Source: Candidatus Woesearchaeota archaeon (GTDB lineage Archaea; Nanobdellota; Nanobdellia; Woesearchaeales; UBA10107). Taken from it: DNA of 40,618 nucleotides. A program made the position numbers and the translations under genes. How positions within the stretch are numbered: the stretch's first letter is position 1; each line of letters begins with the position of its first letter. Below, in pieces: positions 12,221-40,618 of this stretch. Under the pieces are notes generated by a model that was not told the origin of the DNA, made no database searches, and saw only the letters and a list, made by a program, of their open reading frames with translations. Where the stretch lies: contig JAFGRQ010000013.1 of assembly GCA_016935155.1 (NCBI GenBank), positions 1-40,618 of the forward strand, in the 5' to 3' direction.

Positions 12221-12235
12221 GTTGGCTCGTTAAAA

Positions 12236-14432: not shown

Positions 14433-14433
14433 A

Positions 14434-15147: not shown

Positions 15148-15154
15148 AGATAAA

Positions 15155-15538: not shown

Positions 15539-15546
15539 GGATCAAA

Positions 15547-17603: not shown

Positions 17604-17938
17604 CAGCAAAAGAAACAAAGAAAGAAGAAAAAACTGAAAAATCGAAAGCATCTGCTCAGTGTGCAGACCCTCACTGCCCATTCCACGGAATGCTCAGCAC
17701 CAGAGGAAGAACATTCATCGGAAAGGTAATTTCTGACAGAATGTCAAAAAGTGTTACTGTACGATGGGACAGATCAATTTACGTTCCGAAATATGAAAGA
17801 TTTGAAAAAAAATGGTCGAAGGCAAAGGCGCACAATCCGGACTGTCTAAATGTGAAAATGGGCGATACTGTCAAGATTGTTGAGTGCAGGCCGATAAGCA
17901 AAACAAAACATTTTGTTGTTGTGGAGAAGATTAAGTAA
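17600..17938 (+). CDS. rps17: 30S ribosomal protein S17 (uS17)
   Basis: [40 protein letters not shown]. Confidence 0.93.
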
Positions 17939-17939
17939 A

Positions 17940-18341: not shown

Positions 18342-18342
18342 A

Positions 18343-18729
18343 ATGAAATCTGAATTTACAAACAGCTGGAAGAGAAGCAGGCAGACAAGAAAGCAGAGAA
18401 AATATCTGGCAAATGCTCCGCTTCACACTAAAAGAAAATTCATTTCGGCAAGACTTTCGAAGGAACTTACTCAAAAACACAAAACGAGAAGCATGCAGCT
18501 TAGAAAAGGAGATAAAGTAAAAATTGTAGTTGGAAACTACAAAAATCATTCGGGAAAAATAGATCTCATTGAAACTAAATACGGCAGAATATATGTTGAA
18601 GGAACAGCAAGAACAAAAACGGACGGGACAAAATCGCTATATCCGGTCCACCCTTCAAATGTAATAATCCAAGAACTAAATCTCGAGGACAAGAAAAGAA
18701 AAGCAATACTCGAGAGGAAGCAGAAATAA
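18343..18729 (+). CDS. rpl24: 50S ribosomal protein L24 (uL24)
   Basis: KOW motif LRKGDKVKIVVGNYKNHSGKI. Confidence 0.92.
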   Translation: MKSEFTNSWKRSRQTRKQRKYLANAPLHTKRKFISARLSKELTQKHKTRSMQLRKGDKVKIVVGNYKNHSGKIDLIETKYGRIYVEGTARTKTDGTKSLYPVHPSNVIIQELNLEDKKRKAILERKQK

Positions 18730-18730
18730 A

Positions 18731-19417
18731 ATGGTAAAAAACCACTTAAAAAGAATTGCCATGCCAAAAACATGGACCACTGCAGACAAGAAAGGCATAG
18801 TATGGGCGCCGAAAGTAAATCCGGGAGCCCATTCAATGAATGAAGGCCTGCCTTTAGTTATATTGATGAGAGAACTGCTGAAACTTGCAAATACCAAAAG
18901 AGAAGTCAGGAATATCTTGAACCACAAAAAAATACTTATTGACGGCAAACAAAGAAAAGACCACAAATTCAATGTCGGACTAATGGACATTATTTCAATA
19001 GAAGAAACAAAAGAGAATTTCAGGATGTCTTTCAACAAATATGGAAAACTTGTTCCTGTTGCAATAGACCAAAAAGAAGCGAAAGAAAAAATTTGCAAAA
19101 TAAAAGGGAAGGGATTCTACGAAGGAAAATCCCAATTAAGATTAAGCGATGGAAGAATTATTTTGATAGAAAAAGGAAATTACAAAACATCAGACAGTAT
19201 AATCATAACTGTCCCCGAACAGAAGATTGTTCAGCATCTTCCATTTGAGAAGGGAGCCGCAATAATGCTTACCGGAGGAAAAAAAATCGGAGTAATCGGA
19301 GTAATCGAGGAAATAAAGAAAGACGTGATAAGAATTAAATCGCACAATGACGTTTTCGAAACAGACAAGAAGCACTGCTTCGTTGTTGGAAAAGGGAAAC
19401 CGTCTTTGACGGTGTAA
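18731..19417 (+). CDS. rps4e: 30S ribosomal protein S4e
   Basis: HLKRIAMPKTW..HKFNVGLMDIISI. Confidence 0.92.
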   Translation: MVKNHLKRIAMPKTWTTADKKGIVWAPKVNPGAHSMNEGLPLVILMRELLKLANTKREVRNILNHKKILIDGKQRKDHKFNVGLMDIISIEETKENFRMSFNKYGKLVPVAIDQKEAKEKICKIKGKGFYEGKSQLRLSDGRIILIEKGNYKTSDSIIITVPEQKIVQHLPFEKGAAIMLTGGKKIGVIGVIEEIKKDVIRIKSHNDVFETDKKHCFVVGKGKPSLTV

Positions 19418-19426
19418 AAATTGAAA

Positions 19427-19945
19427 ATGGAATCAGAAGCAAGACAAATCAGGATGGAGAAACTCACGCTCAACATAGGTGCAGGAAAAAATGCTGCTCT
19501 GTTGGACAAAGGAGTTAAGCTCTTGAAAACCATAAGCAATGTCAATCCTGTCAAAACGATAACTCAAAAAAGAATTCCTGGATGGGGATTGAGGCCCGGT
19601 CTTCCGATTGGATGCAAAGTAACGCTGAGAAAAAAAGCGGCAGAAGAAGTACTGAAAAAATTGCTGGTTGCAAAGAACTTTGTGCTTAAAGAAAGCCAAT
19701 TTGATGACAATGGGAATGTCGCTTTTGGAATTCATGAATATATAGATATTCCATCCGTAAAATATGACCCGGAAATAGGAATTATCGGACTGGAGGTCTG
19801 TGTCACTCTCGAAAGGCCCGGATTCAGAATCAAAAAAAGAAAAGTTCAGCAGAAGAAAATCCCAAATAGGCACAAGATAACGAGAACCGATGCAATTGTG
19901 TTCATGAAAAACGCTTTTGGCGTGAAAGTAGGTGAAGAAGAATGA
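19427..19945 (+). CDS. rpl5: 50S ribosomal protein L5 (uL5)
   Basis: MEKLTLNIGAGKN..FGIHEYIDIP. The track start 19421 is TTG, two codons upstream. Confidence 0.92.
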   Translation: MESEARQIRMEKLTLNIGAGKNAALLDKGVKLLKTISNVNPVKTITQKRIPGWGLRPGLPIGCKVTLRKKAAEEVLKKLLVAKNFVLKESQFDDNGNVAFGIHEYIDIPSVKYDPEIGIIGLEVCVTLERPGFRIKKRKVQQKKIPNRHKITRTDAIVFMKNAFGVKVGEEE

Positions 19946-20172
19946 CCGTAAGTGATTACAAAAAAATATTGAAAGTTATAAAAAACAAGAATGGCAAGAT
20001 AGCCAAATACAATAAATACAATGTTCCTAAAGCCAGAAAATGCGGCACATCGACGCATAAATGCTGTATTTGCCTGAGAACGGGCGGCCATGTCGGAAAA
20101 TACGGCCTGAGTTTGTGCAGACACTGCTTTAGAGAAAACGCACAGAGACTTGGATTCAAGAAATTCAATTGA
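19942..20172 (+). CDS. rps14: 30S ribosomal protein S14 (uS14), zinc-binding type
   Basis: CCICLRTGGHVGKYGLSLCRHCFRE (CxxC...CxxC). Confidence 0.9.
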   Translation: MTVSDYKKILKVIKNKNGKIAKYNKYNVPKARKCGTSTHKCCICLRTGGHVGKYGLSLCRHCFRENAQRLGFKKFN

Positions 20173-20180
20173 GGATAAAA

Positions 20181-20573
20181 ATGGTTATGAATGACACACT
20201 GTCGGCAGCGATGTCGAACATATACAATGGAGAAAAAATCAGCAAGAAAGAAGTAATCATATTTCCTGTTTCGGGTATCATCAAAAAAACACTTGACGTT
20301 ATGAAAAACAATTATTATATTGGAGATTATGGAGAGAATAAGGACAGCAAAGGAAACTCTTTGAAAATAAATCTGCTTGGCAAGATAAACAAGTGCGGAG
20401 CGATAAAACCTAGGTTCTCTGTCGCACTTGGTGAATACGAAAAGTTCGAAAAAAGATTCCTTCCGGCCAAGGATTTTGGAATTTTGATTGTTTCAACCAA
20501 CAAAGGAATGATGACCCATATGCAGGCAAAAGAAAAAAAATTGGGAGGAAAGCTTATTGCTTACTGCTACTAA
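20181..20573 (+). CDS. rps8: 30S ribosomal protein S8 (uS8)
   Basis: MVMNDTLSAAMSNIYNGE. gagg lies 7 nt upstream of ATG 20181. The track start 20169 is TTG. Confidence 0.92.
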   Translation: MVMNDTLSAAMSNIYNGEKISKKEVIIFPVSGIIKKTLDVMKNNYYIGDYGENKDSKGNSLKINLLGKINKCGAIKPRFSVALGEYEKFEKRFLPAKDFGILIVSTNKGMMTHMQAKEKKLGGKLIAYCY

Positions 20574-20574
20574 A

Positions 20575-21120
20575 ATGAAACTTGACGAATTGAAAAATAC
20601 GGTCGTAATTCCCGAAGGTGTTTCAATTATTATAAACGGCAATACAATAAATGCAAAGGGGCCGCACGGAGAAGTTTCAAGAAAATGGAACAATCCAAGA
20701 ATATTTGTCAAAGTTGATGGAAACAATGCAGTAATAATTGCTAAGAATGCGTCAAAAAAAGAAAAAAGGATGCTTGTTACGGTGAAGGCCCATATTAAAA
20801 ACATGATTGATGGAGTAAATAAGAATAATGAGTGTAAACTGAAGATTTGTTCAAGTCACTTTCCGATGCAGGTAGCTATGGAAGGAAATACTCTTGTTGT
20901 TAAAAACTTCCTGGGAGAAAAAGTTGCGAGAAAGACCACACTGCCAAAAGACGTTCAAGTCAAGATTCAAGGAGATAAAATTTCATTAACCGGGCCTGAC
21001 ATCGAAACTGTTGGAATGTCAGTATCAAAAATAGAGCAGCTTTGCAGAATTACGAACAGAGACAGAAGGATTTTTCAGGACGGGATATATTTGATAGAAA
21101 AAAACGGAAGGGCGCTTTAA
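20575..21120 (+). CDS. rpl6: 50S ribosomal protein L6 (uL6)
   Basis: MKLDELKNTVVIPEGVSIIINGNTINAKGPHGE. ATG follows directly after the rps8 stop. The track start 20557 is TTG inside rps8. Confidence 0.92.
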   Translation: MKLDELKNTVVIPEGVSIIINGNTINAKGPHGEVSRKWNNPRIFVKVDGNNAVIIAKNASKKEKRMLVTVKAHIKNMIDGVNKNNECKLKICSSHFPMQVAMEGNTLVVKNFLGEKVARKTTLPKDVQVKIQGDKISLTGPDIETVGMSVSKIEQLCRITNRDRRIFQDGIYLIEKNGRAL

Positions 21121-21121
21121 A

Positions 21122-21700
21122 ATGACAGATATAAAAGAATTGATAAAAATTAAGAAGGCCTTGGACAGAAAAAGACCCGGATTCAAAAGAGACGGCTACG
21201 GAAAAAGAATGAGGATAACTGCTGAGTGGAGGAAACCGCGCGGACTTCACAACAAAATGAAGAACAAAAAAGCCGGCCACAGAAGAATGCCTATGCCTGG
21301 CTTCAGAACTAACAGACTAGTGAGAGGACTTCATATGACTGGACTGATGCCTGTAAAGGTAAGCTCACTCGTTGATATCGCTATGATGGATAAAGGAACG
21401 CAAGGGGCAATAATTGCAAATGGTGTTGGAAACAGAAAAAGAGTCATATTGATAGAAGCACTGAAGAAAGCGGGAATTCATATTTTGAATCTCAAGGAAA
21501 ATCATTCTCAAAAAATAAAAGAGGCCTTAGAAATCAGGAAAAAGGCCAGAGAAAACAAACTTCTTGAAAAAAAAGAGAAAAGCAAAAAAGCAGAGAAAAA
21601 AGGAGAGAAGAAAGAAATTAAAGAAGAATTGACTCCAGAGCAGAAAGCAGAAGAAGAAAAGAAAGAAAAAGACAAAATACTGACGAAGGCTGAAAAATGA
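21122..21700 (+). CDS. rpl32e: 50S ribosomal protein L32e with ~60-aa K/E-rich tail
   Basis: RPGFKRDGYGKRMRITAEWRKPRGLHNKMK. Confidence 0.9.
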   Translation: MTDIKELIKIKKALDRKRPGFKRDGYGKRMRITAEWRKPRGLHNKMKNKKAGHRRMPMPGFRTNRLVRGLHMTGLMPVKVSSLVDIAMMDKGTQGAIIANGVGNRKRVILIEALKKAGIHILNLKENHSQKIKEALEIRKKARENKLLEKKEKSKKAEKKGEKKEIKEELTPEQKAEEEKKEKDKILTKAEK

Positions 21701-22167
21701 AACTCCAAAGAAGACTAGCATCGCAAATACTGAACTGTTCGCCAAAGAAAATTGTTTTTGATGACAGCAGAATGGAAGAAATTGGAGAAGCCATTACAAA
21801 CTCTGACGTTAGAAGGCTGATAGGTACCGGTGCAATTATCCAGCTTCAGAAATTTGGAGTTTCAAGAAGCATAGCAAGGAAAAGAAAATCTCAGAAGGCA
21901 AAAGGAAGATTAAGAGGGCAGGGTTCAAGAAAGGGTTTGGCCACGGCGAGAGGGGAAACTCAAAAAAGACTGTGGATTAACAAGGTCAGACTCCAGAGGT
22001 CGCTCATCAAGAAACTCAAAAAAAGCAGCCACGTAAATCAAGAAACATACCGTGACCTGTACAACAAAATTAAAGGCGGCTTTTTCAGAAGCAAAAGACA
22101 CGTCCTGTTGTTTTTAGAAGAAAAAGACATATTGAAGTCAAAAGATAAAACCGGGGAGAAGAAATAA
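21697..22167 (+). CDS. rpl19e: 50S ribosomal protein L19e
   Basis: MKLQRRLASQILNCSPKKIVFD..RKRKSQKAKGRLRGQGSRKG. Confidence 0.92.
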   Translation: MKLQRRLASQILNCSPKKIVFDDSRMEEIGEAITNSDVRRLIGTGAIIQLQKFGVSRSIARKRKSQKAKGRLRGQGSRKGLATARGETQKRLWINKVRLQRSLIKKLKKSSHVNQETYRDLYNKIKGGFFRSKRHVLLFLEEKDILKSKDKTGEKK

Positions 22168-22171
22168 CAAA

Positions 22172-22684
22172 ATGAAAAATAAAAGACAGGTAATACCTTT
22201 TAGAAGAAAGAGAGAAGGTAAAACTAATTACAAGAAGAGGATTGCATATTTGACATCCGGTCTTCCAAGGCTGGTTATCAGAAGATCTTTGAAAAATGTT
22301 GTTGTTCAAATAATTACGTACGAGCCGCAGGGAGACAGAGTGGTTGCAAGCGCTAATTCAAAAGACATTAAAAAACTCGGATGGAAGGGCTCGGGAAGCA
22401 ATATTCCGTGTGCATATCTCGTCGGATTCCTTGCAGGAGTCAAGGCCAAAGGCGCAAAGATAAACGAGGCAATAGCAGACTTAGGTCTTTATCAGCAAAT
22501 AAAAGGCTCGAAGATTTATGCCGCCTTAAAGGGTGCTTTCGATGCAGGACTCAAAATTCCTCTCGATGAATCTGTTGTTCCAAATGCTGAAAGACTAAGA
22601 GGAAAGCACATATCAGAACACAGAAAAGTTGATGCTGAAAAGGACTTCGAAGAAGTGCTATCAAAAATCAAAGGTGCAAAATGA
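22172..22684 (+). CDS. rpl18: 50S ribosomal protein L18 (uL18)
   Basis: PFRRKREGKTNYKKRIAYL..RLVIRRSLKNVVVQI. Confidence 0.92.
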   Translation: MKNKRQVIPFRRKREGKTNYKKRIAYLTSGLPRLVIRRSLKNVVVQIITYEPQGDRVVASANSKDIKKLGWKGSGSNIPCAYLVGFLAGVKAKGAKINEAIADLGLYQQIKGSKIYAALKGAFDAGLKIPLDESVVPNAERLRGKHISEHRKVDAEKDFEEVLSKIKGAK

Positions 22685-23469
22685 GCGAAGAAGAAATAAA
22701 AATCCAAAATGCTGTTGAGCCCGCTGAAGAAGTAATCGTACCGATTGACGAGGCGAAAATTGAAAAAACAAGAGAAGATGTTGATATGTGGAAGCCTGTG
22801 TCAGATTTGGGAAGAAAAGTAAAAAGCGGAGAAATAACTGATTTGAATATCATCTTTGACAGAGGACTCAAAATAAAAGAATCCAAAATTGTTGACGCAC
22901 TGCTTGACAATGCTGAATCTGACTTGATTAATATTGGACAGTCAAAAGGAAAGTTTGGAGGCGGAAAAAGAAAAGCATTCAAGCAAACACAGAAAAAAAC
23001 AAATGAAGGCAACAAACCAAAATTTGCTACTTTTGCTATCGTCGGAAATAGAAATGGATTTGTTGGATTGGGATACGGAAAAACAAAGGAAACTGTCCCG
23101 GCAAGAGAAAAGGCGCTGAGAAATGCAAAATTAAATCTTATGAGAATCAGAAGAGGCTGCGGTTCATGGCAATGCGGATGCAAGACGCCGCACAGCATCC
23201 CTTATCAAGTTGAAGGGGCGTGCGGTTCAGTAAGAATTGTCCTCAGACCGGCACCAAAAGGCACTGGCTTGAAAATTGAAAAAGAATGCCAGAAAATACT
23301 TTCGCTTGCAGGAATAAAGGATGTCTGGGCAAAAAGATACGGCCAGGCGAGGAACAAAATAAATCTTGTTAAGGCATGTGAACAGGCACTCAAAAAATTA
23401 AGTACAACGAAAGTCCAGGAGAAATTTTCAGAATCCCTCGGGATTGTTGATGGGAGCAAGGTAAAGTAA
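22681..23469 (+). CDS. rps5: 30S ribosomal protein S5 (uS5)
   Basis: FAIVGNRNGFVGLGYGKTKETVPAREKA..LRPAPKGTGL. Confidence 0.93.
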   Translation: MSEEEIKIQNAVEPAEEVIVPIDEAKIEKTREDVDMWKPVSDLGRKVKSGEITDLNIIFDRGLKIKESKIVDALLDNAESDLINIGQSKGKFGGGKRKAFKQTQKKTNEGNKPKFATFAIVGNRNGFVGLGYGKTKETVPAREKALRNAKLNLMRIRRGCGSWQCGCKTPHSIPYQVEGACGSVRIVLRPAPKGTGLKIEKECQKILSLAGIKDVWAKRYGQARNKINLVKACEQALKKLSTTKVQEKFSESLGIVDGSKVK

Positions 23470-23470
23470 A

Positions 23471-23830
23471 ATGAAGGCAGAAAAAATAGCGGTGGTTGCT
23501 GTGAGAGGATTTCACGATTTGAATGAAGACGTTAAAAAAACATTGAAGCTTCTTAACATGCATAGGAGAAATGTTTGTGTCGTTGTTCCAAACACACCTA
23601 ACGTGCTTGGGATGGTTTCAAAAATAAAGAAATATGTAACATATGGAGAAATTGACGATGAAACTCTGGCCCTTCTGAAAAAGAAGAAAGGAGATTACAA
23701 ATATTACAATTTGAACAGCCCAAGAAAAGGCTATGGAAGAAAAGGAATCAAGAAAGATTTTGTTTGCGGAGGAGCTTTGGGGTACAGGGGCGCTGCAATA
23801 AATGATTTAATCAAGAGGATGCTGCAATGA
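23471..23830 (+). CDS. rpl30: 50S ribosomal protein L30 (uL30)
   Basis: IAVVAVRGFHDLNEDVKKTLKLLNMHRRNVCVVV. Confidence 0.9.
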   Translation: MKAEKIAVVAVRGFHDLNEDVKKTLKLLNMHRRNVCVVVPNTPNVLGMVSKIKKYVTYGEIDDETLALLKKKKGDYKYYNLNSPRKGYGRKGIKKDFVCGGALGYRGAAINDLIKRMLQ

Positions 23831-24255
23831 CATTCAGAAAAAGAAAGAAGAACAGCAGGCAAAGAGGAAGTCACACCCATGGATGGGGAGAAAAGAAAAA
23901 ACACAGAAAGGCAGGACATAGAGGAGGAAAAGGCAGAGCAGGCTCTGGAAAAAGAGCAGACCAGAAAAAACCAATGTACTGGCTCGAAGGAAGAACTTCA
24001 AAATCAGGATTTAAATCAAAAAACCAAGCCGAATCTAATGCAATAAATGTTGGAGACCTTTCTTTAATGATAGACAACAAGAAGTTTGAGAAAAAAGGCA
24101 ATTCCTTCGATATCGACCTTTCTGCTCTTGGATATACAAAACTTTTAAGTAAGGGAGCAGCAAAATATCCTATGAACATCGCCGTTTTGGCTGCGACTGA
24201 AAAAGCTGTTGAAAAAGTAAAATCAAAGGGCGGAAACGTAGTTCTGCCTCAGTAA
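23827..24255 (+). CDS. rpl15: 50S ribosomal protein L15 (uL15)
   Basis: RKRKKNSRQRGSHTHGWGEKKKHRKAGHRGGKGRAGSGKR. Confidence 0.92.
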   Translation: MTFRKRKKNSRQRGSHTHGWGEKKKHRKAGHRGGKGRAGSGKRADQKKPMYWLEGRTSKSGFKSKNQAESNAINVGDLSLMIDNKKFEKKGNSFDIDLSALGYTKLLSKGAAKYPMNIAVLAATEKAVEKVKSKGGNVVLPQ

Positions 24256-24263
24256 AGGGGAAT

Positions 24264-25664
24264 ATGTCTTTATACGACAAAATACTGGACAATCTGCCAG
24301 AGGTTGTGAAGCCTCAGGAAAAGCTTACTTTCAATAAGAAGCTAATATGGACTTTGCTCATTCTTGTAATATTTTTCGCGCTTCAGCTGATTCCTCTTTA
24401 TGGTCTCGGACAAAATACTTTGCAGACATTCGAACTGCTTTCGATTTTATTCGGTTCTGAGTTTGGTTCTTTGATATCTCTTGGAATCGGTCCATTAGTT
24501 ACTGCGTCTATTGTGCTTCAGCTCTTGAATGGTTCGGGAATTGTTAAATTTAATTTGCAAAGCCCTGAAGGAAAAGCAAAGTTTCATGGAACACAGAAAC
24601 TTCTGTCCATCTTCTTTATTTTATTTGAAGCTGCGATTTACGTCTTTTTCGGCGGACTCGCTCCGGCTCCGGAATTGGCTGGTACTTCAGCTTATTTAAT
24701 TCTGCAGATTGTTCTAATTGCCCAGATTTTCCTTGGAGGAATAGTAATTATGATGATGGATGATGTTGTTATGAAATGGGGATTTGGTTCTGGAATTTCT
24801 TTGTTTATCGCTGCAGGAGTTTCAAAAAGCGTATTTGTCAGAGCTCTTTCTTGGCTTCCATCTCCCAACAATCCCGAAATTTCTACGGGAGCTCTTCCTG
24901 CATTATTCCAAAGTTTAACTGCAGGAGATCCTACAACCGCCATGCTCATGTTTTCAGCAATAGTTGCAACAATTGTTGTCTTCTGCGTTGCTGTTTATAC
25001 GCAGGCAATGAAAGTTGAACTTCCTTTAAGTTTCGGAAGAGTAAGGGGATATGGAATAAGGTGGCCTCTGAATTTCATGTACACTTCGAATATTCCTGTT
25101 ATTTTAGTTGCGGCGTTGTTTGCAAACATCCAGTTATTTGCAAGACTGCTTCAAAACATCGGATTCCCTATTCTTGGAACGTTTGTTGGAAATACTCCCG
25201 CTACCGGCTTGATTTCAATGATTAGCGGACAGAATATTGTCGGCTCCATCATAAGACAGGGTTCGTTCTTGATAGGTTGGAAGCCGTATCTTTCTGCATT
25301 GGTTTATGTCTTATTGATGATGATTGGTGTAGTCATATTTGCATTATTGTGGGTTCAAACAAGCGGAACAGACGCAAGAAGCCAGGCAAAACAAATAATA
25401 AATTCAGGACTCCAAATTCCTGGTTTCAGAAAAGATGAAAGAATTCTCGAAGCAATACTAAAGAGATATATTACGCCGCTCACAGTCATGGGTGCTTTAG
25501 CCGTTGGATTTTTAGCTGCTCTTGCTGACTTAGCCGGAGCCCTAACAAATGGAACTGGACTGTTGTTGACAGTCGGTATAATTTACAAAATGTATGAAGA
25601 CATTGCAAGACAGCACATGATGGATATGAATCCTGCAATGAGAAAATTCATGGGTGGAGAATAA
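24264..25664 (+). CDS. secY: preprotein translocase subunit SecY
   Basis: Ten-TM profile, GIGPLVTASIVLQLL plug/TM2 region, and canonical position after rpl15. Confidence 0.95.
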   Translation: MSLYDKILDNLPEVVKPQEKLTFNKKLIWTLLILVIFFALQLIPLYGLGQNTLQTFELLSILFGSEFGSLISLGIGPLVTASIVLQLLNGSGIVKFNLQSPEGKAKFHGTQKLLSIFFILFEAAIYVFFGGLAPAPELAGTSAYLILQIVLIAQIFLGGIVIMMMDDVVMKWGFGSGISLFIAAGVSKSVFVRALSWLPSPNNPEISTGALPALFQSLTAGDPTTAMLMFSAIVATIVVFCVAVYTQAMKVELPLSFGRVRGYGIRWPLNFMYTSNIPVILVAALFANIQLFARLLQNIGFPILGTFVGNTPATGLISMISGQNIVGSIIRQGSFLIGWKPYLSALVYVLLMMIGVVIFALLWVQTSGTDARSQAKQIINSGLQIPGFRKDERILEAILKRYITPLTVMGALAVGFLAALADLAGALTNGTGLLLTVGIIYKMYEDIARQHMMDMNPAMRKFMGGE

Positions 25665-29851: not shown

Positions 29852-30448
29852 ATGAAAAAAGGAATGATATTGCTTATTGCGGCTTTGGTAGTGCTTGTTG
29901 CATGTTCCAGCGCTAAAACAATTTATCCGACACAGACAGAGGAATCAACAAACGGCAGAGCTCCTGTTGAAGCAAGAGTTCAATATTCGGGAACAGACTA
30001 TGAGAAAATTCTTCAAGATACAAAGACAGAAACTGAAGCGAAGAATGACAAAACTCAGGAACTGAATGTTCCAATGAATTTCAAAAAAGGAAATCCTGGT
30101 GAAACTGTTGTTTTTGGATTTAATCTCAATTCAATAAATCAACGAGAGGGAACTTATTTCTACAAAGTGACGTTCATAAAGGCAACGGATACAACGAGCA
30201 ACCCAATTGAAGTTGATAAGAATATTGTCACAAACTGGCTTGCTGAATCTGTTGGAAGCGAAACTGTCCTGGAAAAAGGAGGCAGCTTATATTTCCCAGT
30301 AATCTTTACAATTGGAAAAGAGGTAAAATCGGGGGTGCCTACTGTTTCTGGCCAGTATACGTTTGAAGTACAAATATACAAGAGAGACGGCTCATTTGAA
30401 GACAAGATTGATAACCTTGTGAAAACAATATACTTGAGGGTTGAGTAA
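29852..30448 (+). CDS. secreted lipobox protein, beta-rich, function unknown
   Basis: Signal MKKGMILLIAALVVLVAC|SS (L-V-A-C lipobox-like); no other Cys. Confidence 0.65.
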   Translation: MKKGMILLIAALVVLVACSSAKTIYPTQTEESTNGRAPVEARVQYSGTDYEKILQDTKTETEAKNDKTQELNVPMNFKKGNPGETVVFGFNLNSINQREGTYFYKVTFIKATDTTSNPIEVDKNIVTNWLAESVGSETVLEKGGSLYFPVIFTIGKEVKSGVPTVSGQYTFEVQIYKRDGSFEDKIDNLVKTIYLRVE

Positions 30449-35299: not shown

Positions 35300-36370
35300 C
35301 TATCCCGTTGTTGAAAACGATTTTACCTTTTCCATAAGTTGTTTTGCTTTTCCGGACGAAAAATGCTTTCTAATGGGTTCAAGCAACTTGTTTATTTCAT
35401 TCGCGATTGCTTTTTTCAAATCCATCGGATGAAGTTTTCCGGACCTGTAAATATTTTCTAGTTCTTCATATGATTTTATAAGAATATTTCCGCCGAACTT
35501 TTCTGCTCTTTCTATTTTTAATTTATCAACATTTTCAAAAACAATATACTTTGCATATTCCATTATTGGATTTTCTTCTATGACTGAAGTCGGACAATAT
35601 GCCTTCCCAATTTTCCTTTCAACATCTTCTTTTGTATCGTCCATGAAAATTGCAGTGTCTGGTTTTGACTTTGACATCTTCATAACCATTGCTCTTTCTG
35701 CTCCCGTCAAATCTTTTGGCGGTTCGGACAGTCCAGCAAGCATATGATGACTTACAACAATTGGTTTCTTACGTCCGAGTTTTTCTGCAATTTCTCTTGC
35801 AAGAACATTTACTTTTCTTTGGTCCATTCCCAGCTGGACAATATCTGCATTCAGATAAAATATGTCTGCTACCTGCATGCAGGGATAAATTATTTGTGCA
35901 GCAGAGAGAGATTCAGATTCTGATCTTCCCATGATTTGGGAACATCTGGTTATTCTTTGCACTGAATTCATCGTTGCAATCTTCATAACCAATTCCCAAT
36001 ATTTCTGGTCTTTGATTAGTTGAGATGTTTTTATGATTTCAATATTTTTTGAATCTAATCCGCAAGCCTTCCACATCTCAACGAAATAGTCTCCGGCGAT
36101 GTTTATTTTTTCCATGTCTCCGCCGTATTTGCCATTTAGAAAAGCGAACCAGTCTGCAATCAACATTTTGAACCTGACCCCTGCCTTGATTAGTTTATTA
36201 ATATTTTTTGCCCTCATCAATCCCTGCGCCAAATGCATTCTTCCGCTTGGTTCGAATCCATCATAAGCGGTTGGCTGTTTTTTTGATTTTAGAAGCTCTT
36301 TAAGCTCGTCTTCTGTTATTATTTCTTGACCGACTTCTTTTATCAAAGAAAAACTGGTGTTTGAATCCAT
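35300..36370 (-). CDS. tyrS: tyrosyl-tRNA synthetase (archaeal type)
   Basis: AYDGFEPSGRMHLAQG (HIGH-equivalent), KMSKSKP, and C-terminal KLHPMDLKKAIANEINKLLEPIRKHF. From memory it aligns along its length with M. jannaschii TyrRS. ATG 36370 lies 23 nt downstream of the TATA tttaaata (36393-36400). The track start 36451 is upstream of that TATA. Confidence 0.88.
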   Translation of the reverse strand: MDSNTSFSLIKEVGQEIITEDELKELLKSKKQPTAYDGFEPSGRMHLAQGLMRAKNINKLIKAGVRFKMLIADWFAFLNGKYGGDMEKINIAGDYFVEMWKACGLDSKNIEIIKTSQLIKDQKYWELVMKIATMNSVQRITRCSQIMGRSESESLSAAQIIYPCMQVADIFYLNADIVQLGMDQRKVNVLAREIAEKLGRKKPIVVSHHMLAGLSEPPKDLTGAERAMVMKMSKSKPDTAIFMDDTKEDVERKIGKAYCPTSVIEENPIMEYAKYIVFENVDKLKIERAEKFGGNILIKSYEELENIYRSGKLHPMDLKKAIANEINKLLEPIRKHFSSGKAKQLMEKVKSFSTTG

Positions 36371-36486
36371 ATTAAAAAAGAGTTCTAAAGCATATTTAAA
36401 CCTTCCTCTGGGCATTCTAGAGGTATTTAAAAACAAAAGCTTTAAATACAAGATTAGCTTGAATTTTTATAAGCAAAGGCTAAAAG

Positions 36487-36750
36487 ATGGCAGAAGACGA
36501 CAAGAGACTTTCTAGGGAATTGATAGGTAAATTAGTTGTATCGAAAACTGGAAAGAAATTCGGAGTTGTCGGGGATTTAACTTTCGAATGTAAATCGGGG
36601 GAATTAATTCACCTTGTCTTGACGAATCCGACTCCTTATTCGACGAAACTTGAGCTTGAAAAGGATGGAGAAGGAAATATTCTAATTCCTTACAGCGCCG
36701 TTCAGGCTGTTGGAGATTTCTTAGTTATTGCTGAAGAAGAAGTTGTTTAG
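36487..36750 (+). CDS. PRC-barrel domain protein
   Basis: LIGKLVVSKTGKKFGVVGDLTFECKSGELIHLVL..ILIPYSAVQAVGDFLVI. Confidence 0.75.
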   Translation: MAEDDKRLSRELIGKLVVSKTGKKFGVVGDLTFECKSGELIHLVLTNPTPYSTKLELEKDGEGNILIPYSAVQAVGDFLVIAEEEVV

Positions 36751-36804: not shown

Positions 36805-37770
36805 ATGGGGATGGCAGAACATACAATTTGGACTGAGAAGTACCGACCTAAAACTTTTTCAGAAGTAAAAGGGCAAAAAGAAGCTATTTCTAAAGTACGG
36901 GCATTCATAAAACAAAAAAACATGCCCCACTTAATGTTTTCCGGACCGGCCGGAGTTGGAAAAACAACCCTTTCTCTTGTTGTTGCCCATGAATTGTTTG
37001 GAGAAAACTGGAGAGACAATTTTTTAGAGCTAAATGCGAGCGATGAGAGAGGAATTGATGTAATTAGAAATAAAGTCAAGGATTTTGCAAGAACAAAAGC
37101 GATTGGCGATGTTCCATTCAAGATAATTTATTTGGACGAGTGCGATGCACTGACGAGTGAAGCTCAGCAGGCTCTGCGTAGAACTATGGAGAACTACACT
37201 CAAACTTGCAGATTTATTCTTTCTTGCAACTATTCTTCAAAAATAATTGACCCAATACAATCGAGGTGCGCTATTTTTAGATTTAAGCCTCTGGAAAAAG
37301 ACCAGCTAATGCAAATTCTTGATAAAATAGAATCAAATGAAAAATTAAAAATTAAAGATTCTGCAAAGCAGGCCTTGATTATAATCTGCGAAGGGGATGT
37401 GAGAAGAATGGAAAACATACTGCAGAGCTGTGCTGCCTTATCGAAAGATGTTGACGACGAACTCGTTTATTCTTTAGCGTCTGTTGCAAAGCCAAAGGAA
37501 ATAAAGAAAGTTATTGAATCTGCTCTTTCCGGAAAATTCATAGATGCAAGAAATGAACTTCTCAACGTTATGACTAATTATGGTTTATCGGGACTTGATG
37601 TGATAAAACAAATGCAGAAAGAATTGATGGATTTGAAAATTGATTCAAGACAGCAAATGCTCTTGATTGAAAAATGCGGAGAAGCGGAGTTTAGAATTTC
37701 TGAAGGAAGCGATGAATTTATTCAGTTAGAAGCCTTCTTGGCAAGTATTGGCTTGGTTGGAAACAAATAA
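36805..37770 (+). CDS. rfcS: replication factor C small subunit
   Basis: WTEKYRPKTFSEVKGQ, Walker A GPAGVGKTT, DECD, and the SRC motif QSRCAIFRF. Confidence 0.92.
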   Translation: MGMAEHTIWTEKYRPKTFSEVKGQKEAISKVRAFIKQKNMPHLMFSGPAGVGKTTLSLVVAHELFGENWRDNFLELNASDERGIDVIRNKVKDFARTKAIGDVPFKIIYLDECDALTSEAQQALRRTMENYTQTCRFILSCNYSSKIIDPIQSRCAIFRFKPLEKDQLMQILDKIESNEKLKIKDSAKQALIIICEGDVRRMENILQSCAALSKDVDDELVYSLASVAKPKEIKKVIESALSGKFIDARNELLNVMTNYGLSGLDVIKQMQKELMDLKIDSRQQMLLIEKCGEAEFRISEGSDEFIQLEAFLASIGLVGNK

Positions 37771-37938
37771 TTAAGGAAGAGGAGTTCCGCTTCTGAAAAA
37801 TGATCTAACCAACGATAAAACTAATTGAAGAACAAAAATAATAATTGTCGCCCAACCAATAACAAATATACTCTTATCAAACCAATTTTCTAGAACCCAA
37901 CTAAACCCACTGCCTTTAATTCTCTGAATGCGTTTCAT
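37771..37938 (-). CDS. 55-aa single-pass membrane protein, last gene of the paralog operon (below the track cut-off)
   Basis: Translates MKRIQRIKGSGFSWVLENWFDKSIFVIGWATIIIFVLQLVLSLVRSFFRSGTPLP. ATG 37938 is 6 nt downstream of the stop of 37944..38897. Its stop abuts the rfcS stop. Confidence 0.5.
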   Translation of the reverse strand: MKRIQRIKGSGFSWVLENWFDKSIFVIGWATIIIFVLQLVLSLVRSFFRSGTPLP

Positions 37939-37943
37939 ATCAA

Positions 37944-38897
37944 TCAGCTTGCGTGTTTTACAATAAGCTGTGTATCGACATATTGTTTGTAGCCGTACTT
38001 AACGTCAATTGAAAGAGGAACTTCTGCATCAATCATGTTCGATTCGTCAATTACTTGTGTACATCTTACTTCTCTGGCGTCGCTGTAGAGAGTTACATAA
38101 CCTGCTGTTGCTGTTCCTCCTGTTAGTCCTGAGCAAGTCAATGTTCCAAGCCTCGTGTCCTCAACATCGATGTAAACTACATCTCTGCTTGAAACTTCTG
38201 TTCCGCACACAGTTCCTGTTTTATGCAGGGAATCTGATGCACTTCCGACTTTCTTGATTGTGAAGAAGAAATCAATCTTGTTCGAGCCCGCAACATTCTG
38301 CTCCATATTTGTAATTTGAACAGGAGCTCCTGAATTTTCTATTGGAACGATTCTGTCTGGATTGCAAACTCCTGCCTCTCCCGTTGTTCCTCTCAAATCT
38401 TCCTTTATGCAAAGCTTTGCCTGCGCCTTTGTTCCGTATTCATAGCAGGCATTTGCTCTTACAGTAAAGTCAACAGAACCCTGTATCTCAGAAAAGTAAT
38501 TCATTTCTGGGAAATCAACAACAACATCATCTCCGCTTATTTTATTTCCGGAAGAGTCAATTCTAACTCCATCAAGCGGGTCTGGAGATTGCTTTGTAAG
38601 CTGAGAAGATGAGACTCCAAAATTAGATGGATTCACACCGGTTATCGAAACAATCACATTGCCTGCACTTTCTATATCGTATTCTCCCCTATTTTCCAGT
38701 CTAACAGCTATCTGGAAAGGATTATCCGTGTCAAATACTTCTGAAGGGGGCTGTCCTGGAAGGAAACTTAAAGCGAGGCCTTCACTTCCGCCAACGAATG
38801 CTTTTCCCTTGAATGTTGCTGTCTCTTCAGTCTCTGAACATCCAACAACAACTAATAAAAGAATGACTGCAAATAGCAATTGTGTCTTTTTTGTCAT
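37944..38897 (-). CDS. secreted lipobox protein, paralog 1 of a Cys-rich two-domain family
   Basis: Signal MTKKTQLLFAVILLLVVVGC|SE. Shared family motifs: ACYEY..KLCI..GVC, GAPVQIT, and terminal KYGY. Confidence 0.75.
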   Translation of the reverse strand: MTKKTQLLFAVILLLVVVGCSETEETATFKGKAFVGGSEGLALSFLPGQPPSEVFDTDNPFQIAVRLENRGEYDIESAGNVIVSITGVNPSNFGVSSSQLTKQSPDPLDGVRIDSSGNKISGDDVVVDFPEMNYFSEIQGSVDFTVRANACYEYGTKAQAKLCIKEDLRGTTGEAGVCNPDRIVPIENSGAPVQITNMEQNVAGSNKIDFFFTIKKVGSASDSLHKTGTVCGTEVSSRDVVYIDVEDTRLGTLTCSGLTGGTATAGYVTLYSDAREVRCTQVIDESNMIDAEVPLSIDVKYGYKQYVDTQLIVKHAS

Positions 38898-38952
38898 ACT
38901 GCCTCTCGATTTTCCTATGAAGGGGCCAATATAAATGTTTCTATTGTTTTTA

Positions 38953-39873
38953 TCAGCCCATGCTCTTTATATTCACTCTCTTTGTGACTTGGCTAAGATA
39001 TCCATAATCCAAATTAATTGCCAAAATTGATTTGTAGGCGGGAGATGTTGCATCCACTAAACTAAACTTGCAGTACATTGTTCCCTGTCCATTCGCCATT
39101 CGAACTTTATTTTTTGGACTGCAATCAACGTAGCTTGCAGGAACATCTCCTAAACTAACATCATAATAAACAGCATCAATACTGTCAAATGTCAAAGGGG
39201 TCGGACATTTTGCTAGAGAATACTTGTCAACGACAATTCCTCCTCCCTGATTTGTAAACGTAATCTGGAATCCTACTTCTCCCGGTCTTGCATCCTCTCT
39301 TACAGCAGTAACTGCGATTGGTGCTCCCTGCCCTCCAGATACAGTTGGGCTCGTGGTTTTGCAAACTTCATTTTCCAGAATTGAAGAAGGATCGGGGTCT
39401 ATGCAAACAGGAATTCTCGCTTCTGTTTTGTAATTGTAACAGGCACTTGCCTGAAAATCGACTGGGTATGTGTCCGTTCCAGAAGGTAGAACCAAATCTT
39501 GAGAAACGAAAGACACCGCTTCATATCCTCCGAATGCAAATTTTGTTTTTCCGTCCAGTTGGCTGAAAGTTTTTGTGTTCGGACTTATTCGCACAAGTCT
39601 TGGATCATGTCCGGTTAAATATAAAGTTCCGCTTGAGGTGTACGCTCCTTCATTCTTTAATTCGACAACGAGGTTCAGCTTGCTTCCTTCATACGCAACA
39701 TCCGGCGGGTTATTCTTTATGAAATTCACAGTCACTCCTTTTACTCCGATATGAGCATCCTGAACCGTTGCTGCTTCCTCTTTTGATTTTCCATACTGCA
39801 CACCAGTACATGCTGTCAAGAGAATAGAAAATACAAGCAGGATTACAACCCCTCTTTTCATGATATTTGTCAT
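38953..39873 (-). CDS. secreted lipobox protein, paralog 2
   Basis: Signal (MTNI)MKRGVVILLVFSILLTAC|TG. Motifs ACYNYKTEARIPVCIDP..EVC, QGAPIAVT, LDYGY. The second ATG at 39861 fits the TATA gtttaaata spacing better. Confidence 0.75.
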   Translation of the reverse strand: MTNIMKRGVVILLVFSILLTACTGVQYGKSKEEAATVQDAHIGVKGVTVNFIKNNPPDVAYEGSKLNLVVELKNEGAYTSSGTLYLTGHDPRLVRISPNTKTFSQLDGKTKFAFGGYEAVSFVSQDLVLPSGTDTYPVDFQASACYNYKTEARIPVCIDPDPSSILENEVCKTTSPTVSGGQGAPIAVTAVREDARPGEVGFQITFTNQGGGIVVDKYSLAKCPTPLTFDSIDAVYYDVSLGDVPASYVDCSPKNKVRMANGQGTMYCKFSLVDATSPAYKSILAINLDYGYLSQVTKRVNIKSMG

Positions 39874-39917
39874 TTTTTCTTTTTATTTAAACCTTTTGAG
39901 GCCGGTTTTCTGGGAGA

Positions 39918-40618
39918 CTATCCCACAAAAGATGGATTTTTTATAGTTAATTGGAATGTTTTTCCTGATGCATATCCATATGTCAAATAAACTGACAGCG
40001 GGGTTGTATATGCCGGTTTGTTCGTTTCTATTGACGCCTTGCACCTTGCTGCATAAGTGTCCCCCTGTGTTGAAATTGTAAATGTTTCTGAAATTTCATC
40101 TGATGTTGCAGAGTAACATCTTAGTTTTTCCCCGCTCAAATATGCTTCCATCATTACTGTTCCTTGGTCTCCTTCTTCTAAAGAAACTGAACCTAAACAT
40201 GGTTTTGCATAAGCCGATGGTGCTAAAACAACACCCTTTCCTGAAACGTCCTTAACAAAAATATCAAACTGAACTTCTTTTCTGCTTTCAAAATATGATG
40301 TCACGACTCTGCTCACAGCAACTGGAGCTCCCTGTGAAGAAGTTATCTGTGCTTCGCTGAAGTGGCATCCTTGAGTTGAACCTGAATAAGCCCACTGCGG
40401 ATTTATGCAAACTAATGGTGAGGCCTCCGTTTTATACTGATAACAAGCAAGAATATTGAAAACCTGCAGTTTTTCCTTTGCATTCGGAAGAGCAATTTTT
40501 CCAATTGTGAAAATTTCTGTTGTTTTTTCTCCGATAGGAACAAATTCAGTTCTTCCCTCTAAGTTTATTCCTTCATATTTTGTCGGCGAACTGAACATTA
40601 TGTTTTCCTCGTCATAAC
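39918..40618 (-). CDS. paralog 3, 5'-partial (N-terminus outside the window)
   Basis: Motifs ACYQYKTEASPLVCINP..QGC, QGAPVAVS, LTYGY. The frame stays open upstream of the track's ATG 40598 to the window end (..YDEENIMFSS). The ACY motif sits ~100 aa closer to the listed start than in paralogs 1 and 2. Confidence 0.75.
   Translation of the reverse strand, partial: YDEENIMFSSPTKYEGINLEGRTEFVPIGEKTTEIFTIGKIALPNAKEKLQVFNILACYQYKTEASPLVCINPQWAYSGSTQGCHFSEAQITSSQGAPVAVSRVVTSYFESRKEVQFDIFVKDVSGKGVVLAPSAYAKPCLGSVSLEEGDQGTVMMEAYLSGEKLRCYSATSDEISETFTISTQGDTYAARCKASIETNKPAYTTPLSVYLTYGYASGKTFQLTIKNPSFVG

What the first reader, a model, noticed from the sequence alone, without database searches (positions are those of the whole stretch)
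37771..40618. Operon of three tandem paralogous Cys-rich secreted proteins plus an untracked 55-aa membrane protein
Three consecutive minus-strand genes (39918..>40618, 38953..39873, 37944..38897) encode clearly paralogous ~300-aa proteins.
- Each has two beta-sandwich-like halves. The first half resembles CARDB-type wording, e.g. LNLVVELKNEGAY..GTLYLTG.
- They share a block ACYxYxTxAxxxxCI(x)P...C...(Q)GAP(V/I)xVT and a C-terminal (D/K/T)YGY.
- Six positionally conserved cysteines imply three disulfides, hence extracytoplasmic folding.
- The two complete copies start with lipobox-like signals (VVGC, LTAC).
- A 55-aa single-TM ORF (37771..37938), missed by the 60-aa track cut-off, starts 6 nt after the last paralog.

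I recognise no characterised family. The combination looks like a dedicated cell-surface module (envelope, attachment or appendage subunits plus a membrane anchor or assembly factor) in an organism that also encodes a giant adhesin.
Basis: partly seen in the sequence, partly recalled or inferred. Interest (0 to 1): 0.75.

Follow-up and report, generated by a model that had tools for sequence, protein, structure and literature searches.

The report
Conserved DPANN surface lipoprotein trio
Three neighbouring genes of a tiny symbiotic-type archaeon encode ancient sister copies of an uncharacterised, lipid-anchored, disulfide-rich surface protein; they belong to a five-gene cell-surface module conserved across this archaeal group, whereas the small 55-aa gene next to them is not part of it.

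Summary
Three real, paralogous minus-strand genes (g3 partial, g4, g5) encode ~300-aa proteins. Each has a Sec signal ending in a lipobox, six conserved cysteines, and the shared CYxYxTxA…C…GQGAP…YGY blocks. AlphaFold gives two Ig-like beta-sandwich domains (pLDDT 90).

No Pfam, NCBIfam, PHROG, PADLOC or PDB family matches. Foldseek finds only generic tandem Ig-like folds. The family is large (3,441 50%-identity clusters) and was seen only in DPANN archaea (Woesearchaeota/Nanoarchaeota).

The three copies are distinct orthogroups kept in fixed order. They form the tail of a five-gene cluster whose first two genes lie beyond the window end:
- g1: a prepilin-like K-R-G-Q N-terminus plus three jelly-roll domains.
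- g2: a fast-evolving polytopic membrane protein whose C-terminal domain looks like a fourth copy.

The cluster always sits between pelota and RFC.

New finding: the lipoproteins almost completely avoid N-glycosylation sequons (32 observed against 478 expected). A giant surface protein in the same window is sequon-enriched.

The 55-aa ORF is absent from every orthologous locus and has no relatives, so it is not a module component.

Best reading: a constitutive hetero-oligomeric envelope complex of unknown precise role. This is a new variant of a known kind (archaeal Ig-like surface lipoproteins).

The parts
39918..40618 (-). g3: first paralog, a lipoprotein of the family. The N-terminal ~75 residues run off the window end; 232 aa are visible, with six Cys.
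   Evidence: Translation. Ortholog of L001 g3 at 49% identity, E 9e-80. Orthogroup bit-score matrix. dN/dS 0.14 against L004.
38953..39873 (-). g4: second paralog, 306 aa (302 aa from M5 at 39861). Sec signal plus lipobox LTAC (Cys22, 39808..39810), a flexible tether of ~20 aa, then two Ig-like beta-sandwich domains joined by long strands 135-158 and 280-303.
   Evidence: pLDDT 90. Foldseek gives generic Ig-like hits only. dN/dS 0.07. Zero N-x-S/T sequons.
37944..38897 (-). g5: third paralog, 317 aa. Signal plus lipobox VVGC (Cys20, 38838..38840) and six further Cys.
   Evidence: dN/dS 0.13. Zero sequons.
39361..39444 (-). Family signature block in g4 (residues 144-171): A-C-Y-x-Y-x-T-x-A...V-C-I-D-P...C. 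It lies on the long inter-domain strand and the following loop.
   Evidence: Invariant or near-invariant columns of A2. Secondary structure from the model.
37771..37938 (-). 55-aa ORF with one hydrophobic helix. It is a lineage-specific insertion between the convergent g5 and RFC genes. It is NOT a conserved component of the module, and its coding status is unresolved.

Best explanation
The three genes are the distal part of a five-gene cell-envelope module conserved in the Woesearchaeota/Nanoarchaeota-type DPANN loci examined.

The three window genes (g3, g4, g5):
- Each is exported by Sec. This follows from the n-region plus hydrophobic signal, with no twin-arginine (shown from sequence).
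- Each is tethered to the outer face of the membrane through the lipobox cysteine. This is inferred from the motif and from published evidence that DPANN are rich in lipobox proteins and carry AliA.
- Each projects a rigid rod of two Ig-like beta-sandwich domains on a ~20-residue flexible tether (model).
- The rod is stapled by up to three disulfides (inferred from six conserved Cys).

Why a mixed complex is likely:
- The three copies are ancient, distinct orthogroups kept 1:1:1 in fixed order (shown).
- The upstream polytopic membrane protein g2 ends in a domain homologous to their second domain (moderate evidence).
- They therefore most likely assemble into one hetero-oligomeric complex anchored by g2. 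This complex would be associated with g1, a prepilin-like protein with three lectin-like jelly-roll domains (inferred).

What the sequon avoidance adds:
- The near-total avoidance of N-glycosylation sequons shows that the proteins face the oligosaccharyltransferase.
- It also shows that they are selected to stay glycan-free.
- I read this as tight protein-protein or protein-membrane packing close to the membrane, beneath the glycosylated outer coat.

I commit to a constitutive structural or organising role in the envelope rather than a variable adhesin. The precise activity is unknown. The 55-aa ORF is a lineage-specific addition or a chance ORF, not part of the machine.
For: Paralogy and family:
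- Paralogy and signature motifs.
- Lipobox in 172 of 211 relatives; six Cys in 132 of 155.
- AF2 two-domain model, pLDDT 90.
- Large family: 3,441 clusters at E<=1e-3 and 1,754 at E<=1e-30, nearly all 300-330 aa.
- Named hits are only Woesearchaeota, Nanoarchaeota and Aenigmarchaeota.

Synteny and orthology:
- The order pelota | g1 g2 g3 g4 g5 | RFC PRC holds in L001, L005, L006 and L007 (g4 identity to the window 25-55%); g1-g5 in the same order also occur in L009, L010 and L017 and g1-g4 in the short contig L011.
- The orthogroup matrix shows g3-g3, g4-g4 and g5-g5 as best hits across loci.
- g2 C-terminal residues 440-541 align to family domain 2 with motifs in register: hhalign Prob 65%, E 6e-5.

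g1:
- Invariant Q in the K-R-G-Q motif before the hydrophobic helix.
- Three jelly-roll domains.

Selection and sequons:
- dN/dS 0.07-0.14.
- Sequons 32 observed against 478 expected, with control motifs at 0.87-1.10.
- All 15 g3/g4/g5 proteins of five loci have none, while the giant surface ORF has 70 against 25 expected.

Literature:
- Lipoproteins are prevalent in DPANN and AliA is present there (PMC12462473).
Against: - No experimental data exist. Complex formation, lipidation and disulfides are all inferred.
- g1 and g2 are not in the window. Their presence in this organism is extrapolated from relatives at 52-55% g4 identity (the closest relative, L004 at 79%, is cut at the same point as the window).
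- Some lineages (L012-L016) keep only g4+g5 next to RFC. The five-gene form is therefore not universal, and g1-g3 may be dispensable or encoded elsewhere.
- The g2 homology is only 65% probability.
- Sequon avoidance may be general to lipoproteins of these organisms rather than specific to this family. Four unrelated lipobox ORFs in the fetched loci and the window also have no sequons, against ~6 expected.
- Surface proteins evolving faster than RFC (45-79% identity against 85-91%) are also compatible with a host-interaction role.
Confidence: 0.5

Rival explanations
1. Host-attachment complex. The Ig-like rods and the lectin-like g1 bind the surface of the host cell (an archaeon or a bacterium), and the module mediates episymbiotic contact.
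For: - DPANN are inferred symbionts, and many of their lineage-specific families are extracellular (PMC8204110).
- The g1 domains resemble carbohydrate-binding jelly rolls such as BcsB and beta-galactosidase C-terminal domains.
- g2 evolves very fast: only 5 word-search hits and barely detectable similarity across loci.
- Foldseek hits include adhesin- and pilin-like Ig tandems.
Against: - g3-g5 and especially g1 are well conserved, at a fixed position among housekeeping genes, with dN/dS of 0.14 or less.
- Adhesins are usually large, variable, repeat-rich and glycosylated, like the giant ORF in the same window.
- A ~20-residue tether plus a ~300-aa rod reaches only a short distance from the membrane.
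Confidence: 0.2
2. S-layer or lattice proteins. The three paralogs co-assemble into the two-dimensional surface layer of these archaea, lipid-anchored instead of stalk-anchored.
For: - Archaeal S-layer proteins are built from Ig-like domains (my own knowledge).
- The module is constitutive and conserved.
- The family is abundant in metagenomes.
- Three paralogs could form a pseudo-symmetric unit.
Against: - Sequons are depleted 14-fold, the opposite of known archaeal S-layer glycoproteins.
- Foldseek did not return solved archaeal S-layer proteins among its top 50 hits.
- Woesearchaeota transcriptomes already list separately annotated S-layer protein genes among top-expressed genes (PMC11606122).
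- The proteins are small.
Confidence: 0.12
3. Binding and uptake apparatus. g1, with its class III signal like the bindosome binding proteins, and the lipoproteins capture polysaccharide or another substrate at the surface for uptake.
For: - g1 has a prepilin-like K-R-G-Q N-terminus with an invariant Q and CBM-like domains.
- Class III-signal binding proteins are reported as widespread in archaea (bioRxiv 10.64898/2026.04.22.720090).
- Lipoproteins are the usual archaeal substrate-binding proteins (my own knowledge).
Against: - There is no transporter permease, ATPase, TFF ATPase or platform gene in or beside the cluster.
- The lipoproteins are all-beta Ig-like, not the alpha/beta substrate-binding fold.
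- The g2 membrane domain is poorly conserved, which is unlike a transporter.
Confidence: 0.1
4. The 55-aa ORF is a genuine small membrane subunit of the module.
For: - It fills the whole 173-nt gap, on the same strand and 5 nt after the g5 stop.
- The chance of a 55-codon open frame at this composition is about 2% per frame (my estimate).
- Its codon score is above all off-frame windows.
Against: - It is absent from all orthologous loci, including the 79%-identity relative L004.
- The exact sequence is not in the protein collection.
- There is no relative in the fetched loci or in JGI metagenomes.
- Its codon score is below 97% of true coding windows.
- T-rich strands give hydrophobic ORFs by chance.
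Confidence: 0.05

Closest known systems
CARDB / DUF11-type Ig-like cell-surface domains (Pfam PF07705, PF01345)
   Same: - All-beta Ig-like sandwich domains in tandem on prokaryotic surface proteins, with an 'L-x-N-x-G' strand motif.
- Two of 53 members give weak CARDB hits.
- A DUF11 protein is the top BFVD Foldseek hit.
   Different: - No member reaches the Pfam gathering score.
- The CYxYxTxA / GQGAP / YGY signature, the six-Cys pattern and the lipobox architecture are specific to this family.
Archaeal lipobox lipoproteins (AliA/AliB-dependent, studied in Haloferax volcanii; PMC12462473)
   Same: - Sec-type signal ending in [LVI][ASTVI][GAS]C.
- Predicted to be prevalent in DPANN, and AliA (arCOG02177) is found in DPANN.
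   Different: - The known examples are mostly substrate-binding or redox proteins.
- This family has no assigned function, forms a conserved paralog triad, and avoids N-glycosylation sequons.
Archaeal S-layer proteins built of Ig-like domains (e.g. Haloferax csg, Sulfolobus SlaA/SlaB; my own knowledge)
   Same: Constitutive, conserved envelope proteins made of Ig-like beta-sandwiches and held at the membrane by a lipid or a partner.
   Different: - S-layer proteins are large and heavily N-glycosylated. Here the proteins are 30 kDa, with sequons depleted 14-fold.
- There was no Foldseek match to solved S-layer proteins in the top 50.
WxL-interacting protein (WxLIP) cell-surface complex clusters of Gram-positive bacteria (PDB 9i25, 9i1y)
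   Same: - Operon-encoded sets of surface proteins.
- WxLIP is a two-Ig-like-domain, membrane-tethered protein. Foldseek E 2.6e-5 to 4e-5, probability 0.98-0.99.
   Different: - Bacterial, with a C-terminal TM anchor, no lipobox and no Cys pattern.
- TM-score is only ~0.22-0.26 at 8% identity. This is a fold-level analogy, not a demonstrated relationship.
BcsB-like / CBM jelly-roll ectodomains, and class III-signal (prepilin-like) surface proteins: these compare with g1 only
   Same: - g1 has a single N-terminal hydrophobic helix preceded by K-R-G-Q (invariant Q), followed by tandem jelly rolls.
- These resemble carbohydrate-binding domains.
   Different: - No type IV filament ATPase or platform genes are adjacent.
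- There are no Pfam pilin hits.
- Foldseek TM-scores are 0.26 or lower.

Membership tests
CARDB (PF07705) | Match to the Pfam HMM at or above the gathering score | tested here: not met
   The three window proteins give no hit even at E<=10. Of 53 family members, 2 give sub-threshold hits, best E 0.0012.
Prokaryotic lipobox lipoproteins | N-terminal signal peptide (positive n-region, hydrophobic core) ending in [LVI][ASTVI][GAS]-C | tested here: met
   g4 has LTAC (Cys22) and g5 has VVGC (Cys20). The Cys is at least 90% conserved in A2. 172 of 211 relatives carry the motif. L001 g3 hits PF08139 LPAM_1 at 21.3 bits against a cut-off of 20.
Prokaryotic lipobox lipoproteins | Covalent lipid on the Cys and cleavage before it | not testable with these tools
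   This needs mass spectrometry or radiolabelling. The only indirect support is that AliA is present in DPANN (PMC12462473).
Archaeal S-layer glycoproteins | Abundant N-glycosylation sequons or glycosylation | tested here: not met
   32 sequons against 478 expected in 212 members. 184 members have none.
Archaeal S-layer glycoproteins | Self-assembly into a 2-D lattice covering the cell | not testable with these tools
   This requires cryo-ET or in vitro assembly.
Type IV pilin-like (class III signal) proteins: g1 of relatives only | [KR]-[GA]-cleavage motif followed by a ~20-residue hydrophobic helix | tested here: met
   K-R-G-Q is followed by A-rich and hydrophobic residues, and Q7 is invariant in 26 sequences. 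The model shows a helix at 9-28. Cleavage itself was not tested.
Type IV filament (TFF) systems | Secretion ATPase plus platform protein encoded in the cluster | tested here: not met
   The neighbours are pelota, TrmB, RFC, PRC, TyrRS and PAN. No ATPase or platform Pfam domains occur in g1-g5.
ABC-type substrate-binding lipoproteins | Alpha/beta two-lobe binding fold, with adjacent permease and ATPase genes | tested here: not met
   The model is all-beta. No transporter genes lie in the cluster.
Viral or mobile-element structural proteins | Match to phage or virus families, or presence on viral contigs | tested here: not met
   PHROGs gives none. The IMG/VR scan gives none. BFVD gives only generic Ig-like hits. 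The chromosomal synteny is fixed.
Anti-phage defence systems | Match to PADLOC models | tested here: not met
   There is no hit for g3-g5 or g1, and only a meaningless 8-bit SspH hit for g2.

The most novel reading that the evidence does not exclude
The g1-g5 module is a previously undescribed, DPANN-specific membrane-surface machine. It would be a hetero-oligomer of three glycan-free, disulfide-stapled Ig-rod lipoproteins around a polytopic fourth paralog, with a prepilin-like lectin subunit. In this reading it builds or gates the contact zone through which these metabolically dependent cells obtain material from a partner, or otherwise performs an envelope function with no counterpart in studied archaea. 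The family-wide purge of N-glycosylation sequons would be a signature of that function.
Probability: 0.2. Interest if true: 0.8.

Novelty: new variant of a known kind. Interest (0 to 1): 0.55.

Why it matters
Woesearchaeota and Nanoarchaeota-type DPANN are among the most widespread uncultured archaea, and most of their lineage-specific genes have no annotation. This module has several features that mark it as a prime candidate for a core envelope component of these cells:
- It is conserved and sits in a housekeeping neighbourhood.
- It is purely extracytoplasmic.
- It represents thousands of sequence clusters.
- It has no Pfam coverage.

It offers a concrete target for a new family definition, for multimer modelling, and for metaproteomics and cryo-ET.

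The strong, family-wide avoidance of N-glycosylation sequons is an unusual and easily testable signal. It stands next to a sequon-enriched giant surface protein in the same genome. It could be used to separate glycan-free, membrane-proximal proteins from the glycosylated outer coat in uncultured archaea.

Tried and rejected
- Pfam, NCBIfam, PHROGs and PADLOC scans of all three paralogs, the micro-ORF, and g1/g2 of a relative gave nothing above threshold.
- PDB sequence searches with the family profile and the g1 profile gave nothing.
- Foldseek of the g4 model against PDB and BFVD, and of the g1 model against PDB, gave only generic Ig-like and jelly-roll hits. TM-scores were ~0.2 because domain orientations differ.
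- An Rfam scan of the whole window found no RNA family, so the unique insertion is not a known RNA.
- The bacterial-type promoter and terminator scan was uninformative for an archaeon.
- The micro-ORF as a module part was rejected. A weak tblastn echo at window 4878..4967 (E 0.03) led nowhere.
- A viral or mobile origin was rejected.
- g1 as a further paralog of the lipoproteins was rejected: hhalign probability 1.6%.
- The word-based search for g2 relatives returned only 5 proteins. I therefore folded g1 instead of g2, and the structure of the g2 membrane domain remains unexamined.
- Literature searches found no description of this family or cluster. The library is limited to open-access text.
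Full report
**1. Observation**

- 37944..38897, 317 aa, called g5 here.
- 38953..39873, 306 aa, called g4. Gene callers use Met5, giving 302 aa (P0001).
- 39918..>40618, called g3. 232 aa are visible and the N-terminus runs off the window.

Pairwise BLASTP shows real paralogy: g5-g4 E 3e-11, g4-g3 E 9e-16, g5-g3 E 5e-7, at 23-31% identity.

The shared signature is confirmed in a 53-sequence family alignment (A2).
- Invariant positions (g4 numbering): Y146, Y148, T150, C157, C171, G183, P185, C251, C268, Y290, Y292.
- At least 90% conserved: C145, C223, the lipobox Cys22, and the VCIDP and GQG residues.

Each window copy has exactly six Cys after the lipobox Cys. So do 132 of 155 full-length relatives. 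A lipobox [LVI..][AST..][GAS]C lies within the first 45 residues in 172 of 211 relatives, at a median Cys position of 19.

Against the closest relative (L004), dN/dS is 0.14, 0.07 and 0.13 for g3, g4 and g5. RFC gives 0.03. dS is near saturation, so the ratios are rough. These are real genes under purifying selection.

**2. Fold and family**

AlphaFold2 on g4 with the 53-sequence alignment gives pLDDT 90 and pTM 0.81. The model has:
- a signal helix at residues 5-21;
- a low-confidence tether at about residues 22-45;
- two beta-sandwich domains linked by two unusually long strands (135-158 and 280-303).

The long strands carry the CYxYxTxA and DYGY motifs. The conserved tyrosines therefore lie on the two long strands that link the domains.

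Foldseek against PDB and BFVD returns only generic tandem Ig-like folds, at TM-scores of ~0.2 and 8-12% identity. These include integrin alpha leg domains, transglutaminase C-terminal barrels, WxLIP, CEP192 SPD-2 and DUF11.

No sequence family matches:
- Pfam and NCBIfam give no hit for the window proteins even at E<=10.
- Across 53 members only 2 touch CARDB, best E 0.0012, below the cut-off.
- The PDB profile search finds nothing.
- PHROGs and PADLOC find nothing.

The family is nevertheless very large. A profile search of 1.84 billion cluster representatives finds 3,441 proteins at E<=1e-3 and 1,754 at E<=1e-30, almost all 300-330 aa. Every named hit is Woesearchaeota, Nanoarchaeota/Nanoarchaeia or Aenigmarchaeota. 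Some MAGs are labelled 'uncultured Methanosarcinales', including a 774-kb chromosome. From its size and gene content I take this to be a default label for a DPANN genome.

**3. Context: a five-gene module**

Related loci show the same arrangement.
- Full flanked order, pelota(-) | g1 | g2 | g3 | g4 | g5 | RFC small subunit(-) | PRC-barrel: L001 (OZ246410.1), L005, L006 and L007, which span g4 identities to the window of 25-55%.
- g1-g5 in the same order: also L009, L010 and L017. The short contig L011 carries g1-g4.

The window shows the distal end of this arrangement: g3, g4, g5, then RFC at 36805..37770, PRC at 36487..36750 and TyrRS at 35300..36451.

A bit-score matrix shows that g3, g4 and g5 are three separate orthogroups. 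Each is most similar to its positional counterpart in other genomes. The triplication is therefore ancient and the copies are not redundant.

g1 (~390-410 aa) is the best-conserved member.
- Its N-terminus reads K-R-G-Q followed by an Ala-rich hydrophobic helix. The Q is invariant in 26 sequences, down to 28% identity.
- This is the pattern of an archaeal class III (prepilin-type) signal. Cleavage was not tested.
- Its model (pLDDT 85) shows three jelly-roll domains.
- Foldseek relates these to carbohydrate-binding-type jelly rolls: beta-galactosidase C-terminal domains, BcsB and reelin repeats.

g2 (493-1054 aa) has a charged cytoplasmic N-terminus, about five hydrophobic segments and a Cys-containing ectodomain.
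- It evolves very fast.
- Its last ~100 residues align to domain 2 of the lipoprotein family, with the N-x-G-x-G, Cys and Y-x-Y motifs in register. hhalign gives Prob 65% and E 6e-5 for the single comparison.
- I treat g2 as a probable membrane-integral fourth paralog.

g1 is unrelated to the family.

A second group of genomes (L012-L016) has only g4+g5 next to RFC. The five-gene form is therefore not universal.

**4. The micro-ORF**

The 55-aa ORF exists at 37771..37938. It fills the whole gap between the g5 stop and the convergent RFC stop. Several results speak against it as a module component.
- The gap is only ~10-50 nt in every orthologous locus, including the 79%-identity relative L004. 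Alignment shows a ~120-nt insertion unique to this genome.
- The exact sequence is not in the 15-billion-protein collection.
- It has no tblastn relative in the fetched loci or in JGI metagenome contigs.
- Rfam finds no RNA there.
- Its codon-usage score is intermediate: below 97% of true in-frame windows and above all off-frame windows.

It may still be a young lineage-specific small gene.

**5. A new observation: avoidance of N-glycosylation sequons**

Across 212 family members, N-x-S/T (x not Pro) occurs 32 times against 478 expected from per-protein shuffles, a ratio of 0.07. 184 members have none.

| Motif or protein set | Observed/expected |
|---|---|
| Family, N-x-S/T | 0.07 (32 vs 478) |
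| Control Q-x-S/T | 1.06 |
| Control D-x-S/T | 0.96 |
| Control S/T-x-N | 0.87 |
| Control N-x-D/E | 1.10 |
| g1 family | no depletion (143 vs 150) |
| g2 | ~0.4 (13 vs 32) |
| Giant surface ORF (minus strand 1..4608, at least 1536 aa) | 2.8-fold enriched (70 vs 25) |

All 15 g3/g4/g5 proteins from the window and four other loci have zero sequons. Cytoplasmic neighbours in the window are near expectation.

Two inferences follow.
- The lipoproteins are exposed to the oligosaccharyltransferase, which is independent support for export.
- Glycans on them are selected against.

Caveat: four unrelated lipobox ORFs in the available DNA also lack sequons, against ~6 expected. The rule may therefore apply to lipoproteins of these organisms in general. 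A genome-wide test is needed.

**6. Mechanism**

Shown:
- Sec-type lipobox signals.
- A two-domain Ig-like model.
- Six conserved Cys.
- Three conserved orthogroups in fixed order.
- Conserved neighbours g1 and g2.
- Sequon avoidance.
- Purifying selection.

Inferred:
- Lipid anchoring. Lipoproteins are prevalent in DPANN, and AliA/arCOG02177 is present there (PMC12462473).
- Up to three disulfides.
- Assembly of g3-g5 with the g2 ectodomain into one hetero-oligomer close to the membrane.
- Association with the lectin-like g1.
- A glycan-free surface because of tight packing.

I favour a constitutive envelope-organising role. The cluster's position among housekeeping genes is fixed, orthology is 1:1:1, and the proteins are small and conserved. 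The sequon-rich, repeat-rich giant protein in the same window looks like the typical adhesin or outer coat.

Rivals are host attachment, an S-layer lattice, and a binding or uptake apparatus. None can be excluded without experiments. The S-layer reading is weakened by the sequon depletion. The uptake reading is weakened by the lack of any transporter, ATPase or platform gene. A viral or defence origin is rejected.

Upstream of g4 there is a TTTAAATA box at 39884..39891, about 23 nt before Met5. Upstream of g5 there is a TTTATAT box at 38929..38935. These may be individual archaeal promoters. This is unverified reading of the sequence.

**7. Comparison with what is known, and novelty**

The closest known kinds are:
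- CARDB/DUF11-type Ig-like surface domains. The fold class is shared and sequence similarity is faint, but membership is not met.
- Archaeal lipobox lipoproteins. The motif is met and the lipid is untested.
- Ig-like S-layer proteins. The glycosylation feature is not met.
- Gram-positive WxLIP surface complexes, which are a fold-level analogy only.

I found no description of this family or cluster in the searchable literature. General surveys only state that most DPANN lineage-specific families are unannotated and predicted to be membrane-bound or extracellular (PMC8204110).

I classify it as a new variant of a known kind: an archaeal Ig-like surface lipoprotein module. There is a moderate chance that the whole g1-g5 assembly is a distinct machine.

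**8. Verdict**

- The interpretation as a dedicated surface module is supported.
- The micro-ORF component is not supported.
- The real partners lie beyond the window end.
- Interest is moderate (0.55). This is a large, conserved, unannotated envelope family of a major uncultured archaeal group, with an unusual glycosylation-avoidance signature. Its fold is generic and no function has been demonstrated.

Noticed in passing
window 37944..40618 and relatives (P0001-P0212): There is family-wide, ~14-fold depletion of N-x-S/T glycosylation sequons (32 against 478 expected), with control motifs near 1.0. The partner g1 shows no depletion, and a giant surface protein in the same window shows 2.8-fold enrichment.
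   Followed up: partly
window 40618 (contig end) and L004 position 1: This contig and the contig of an independent relative (SRR27370455, ~87% nucleotide identity here) end at exactly the same homologous base inside g3. This suggests a repeat or a population-hypervariable region just upstream (the g3 N-terminus or the fast-evolving g2) that breaks assemblies.
   Followed up: partly
window 1..4608 (minus strand; runs off the window start): A giant ORF of at least 1536 aa has an N-terminal hydrophobic segment, tandem ~262-nt repeats at the window start (1, 529, 791), weak HYR and Pur_ac_phosph_N (Ig/FN3-like) hits, and 70 sequons against 25 expected. It is probably a glycosylated adhesin or outer-coat protein.
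   Followed up: partly
window 29852..30448 (+): A 198-aa ORF has a clear lipobox (LVAC) and no Pfam hit, and is conserved in L001 and L004. It and its orthologs also contain no N-x-S/T sequons, which hints that sequon avoidance may be general to lipoproteins in these genomes.
   Followed up: partly
L005 9842..12727: The RFC small-subunit gene next to the module in this relative encodes 961 aa and carries an intein (PF14890), unlike the 321-aa RFC of the window.
   Followed up: no
L012-L016: A second lineage keeps only g4+g5 beside RFC. Nop56/fibrillarin and ribosomal protein genes lie upstream instead of g1-g3. In L014 about 1.1 kb is inserted between g4 and g5.
   Followed up: no
L010 (DUFL01000005.1) 3673..6623: In the Woesearchaeota MAG UBA10107, g2 is split into two ORFs and g4 is reduced to a 101-aa fragment. 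This reflects either assembly or frameshift errors or decay of the module in that genome.
   Followed up: no
window 12146..25664: A long plus-strand run of short, tightly packed ORFs with strong AT and GC skew lies here. A run of ribosomal-protein genes lies upstream of g4 in the relative L012. I take the window run to be the archaeal ribosomal-protein operon, but I did not annotate it. It would place the module in a housekeeping neighbourhood.
   Followed up: no
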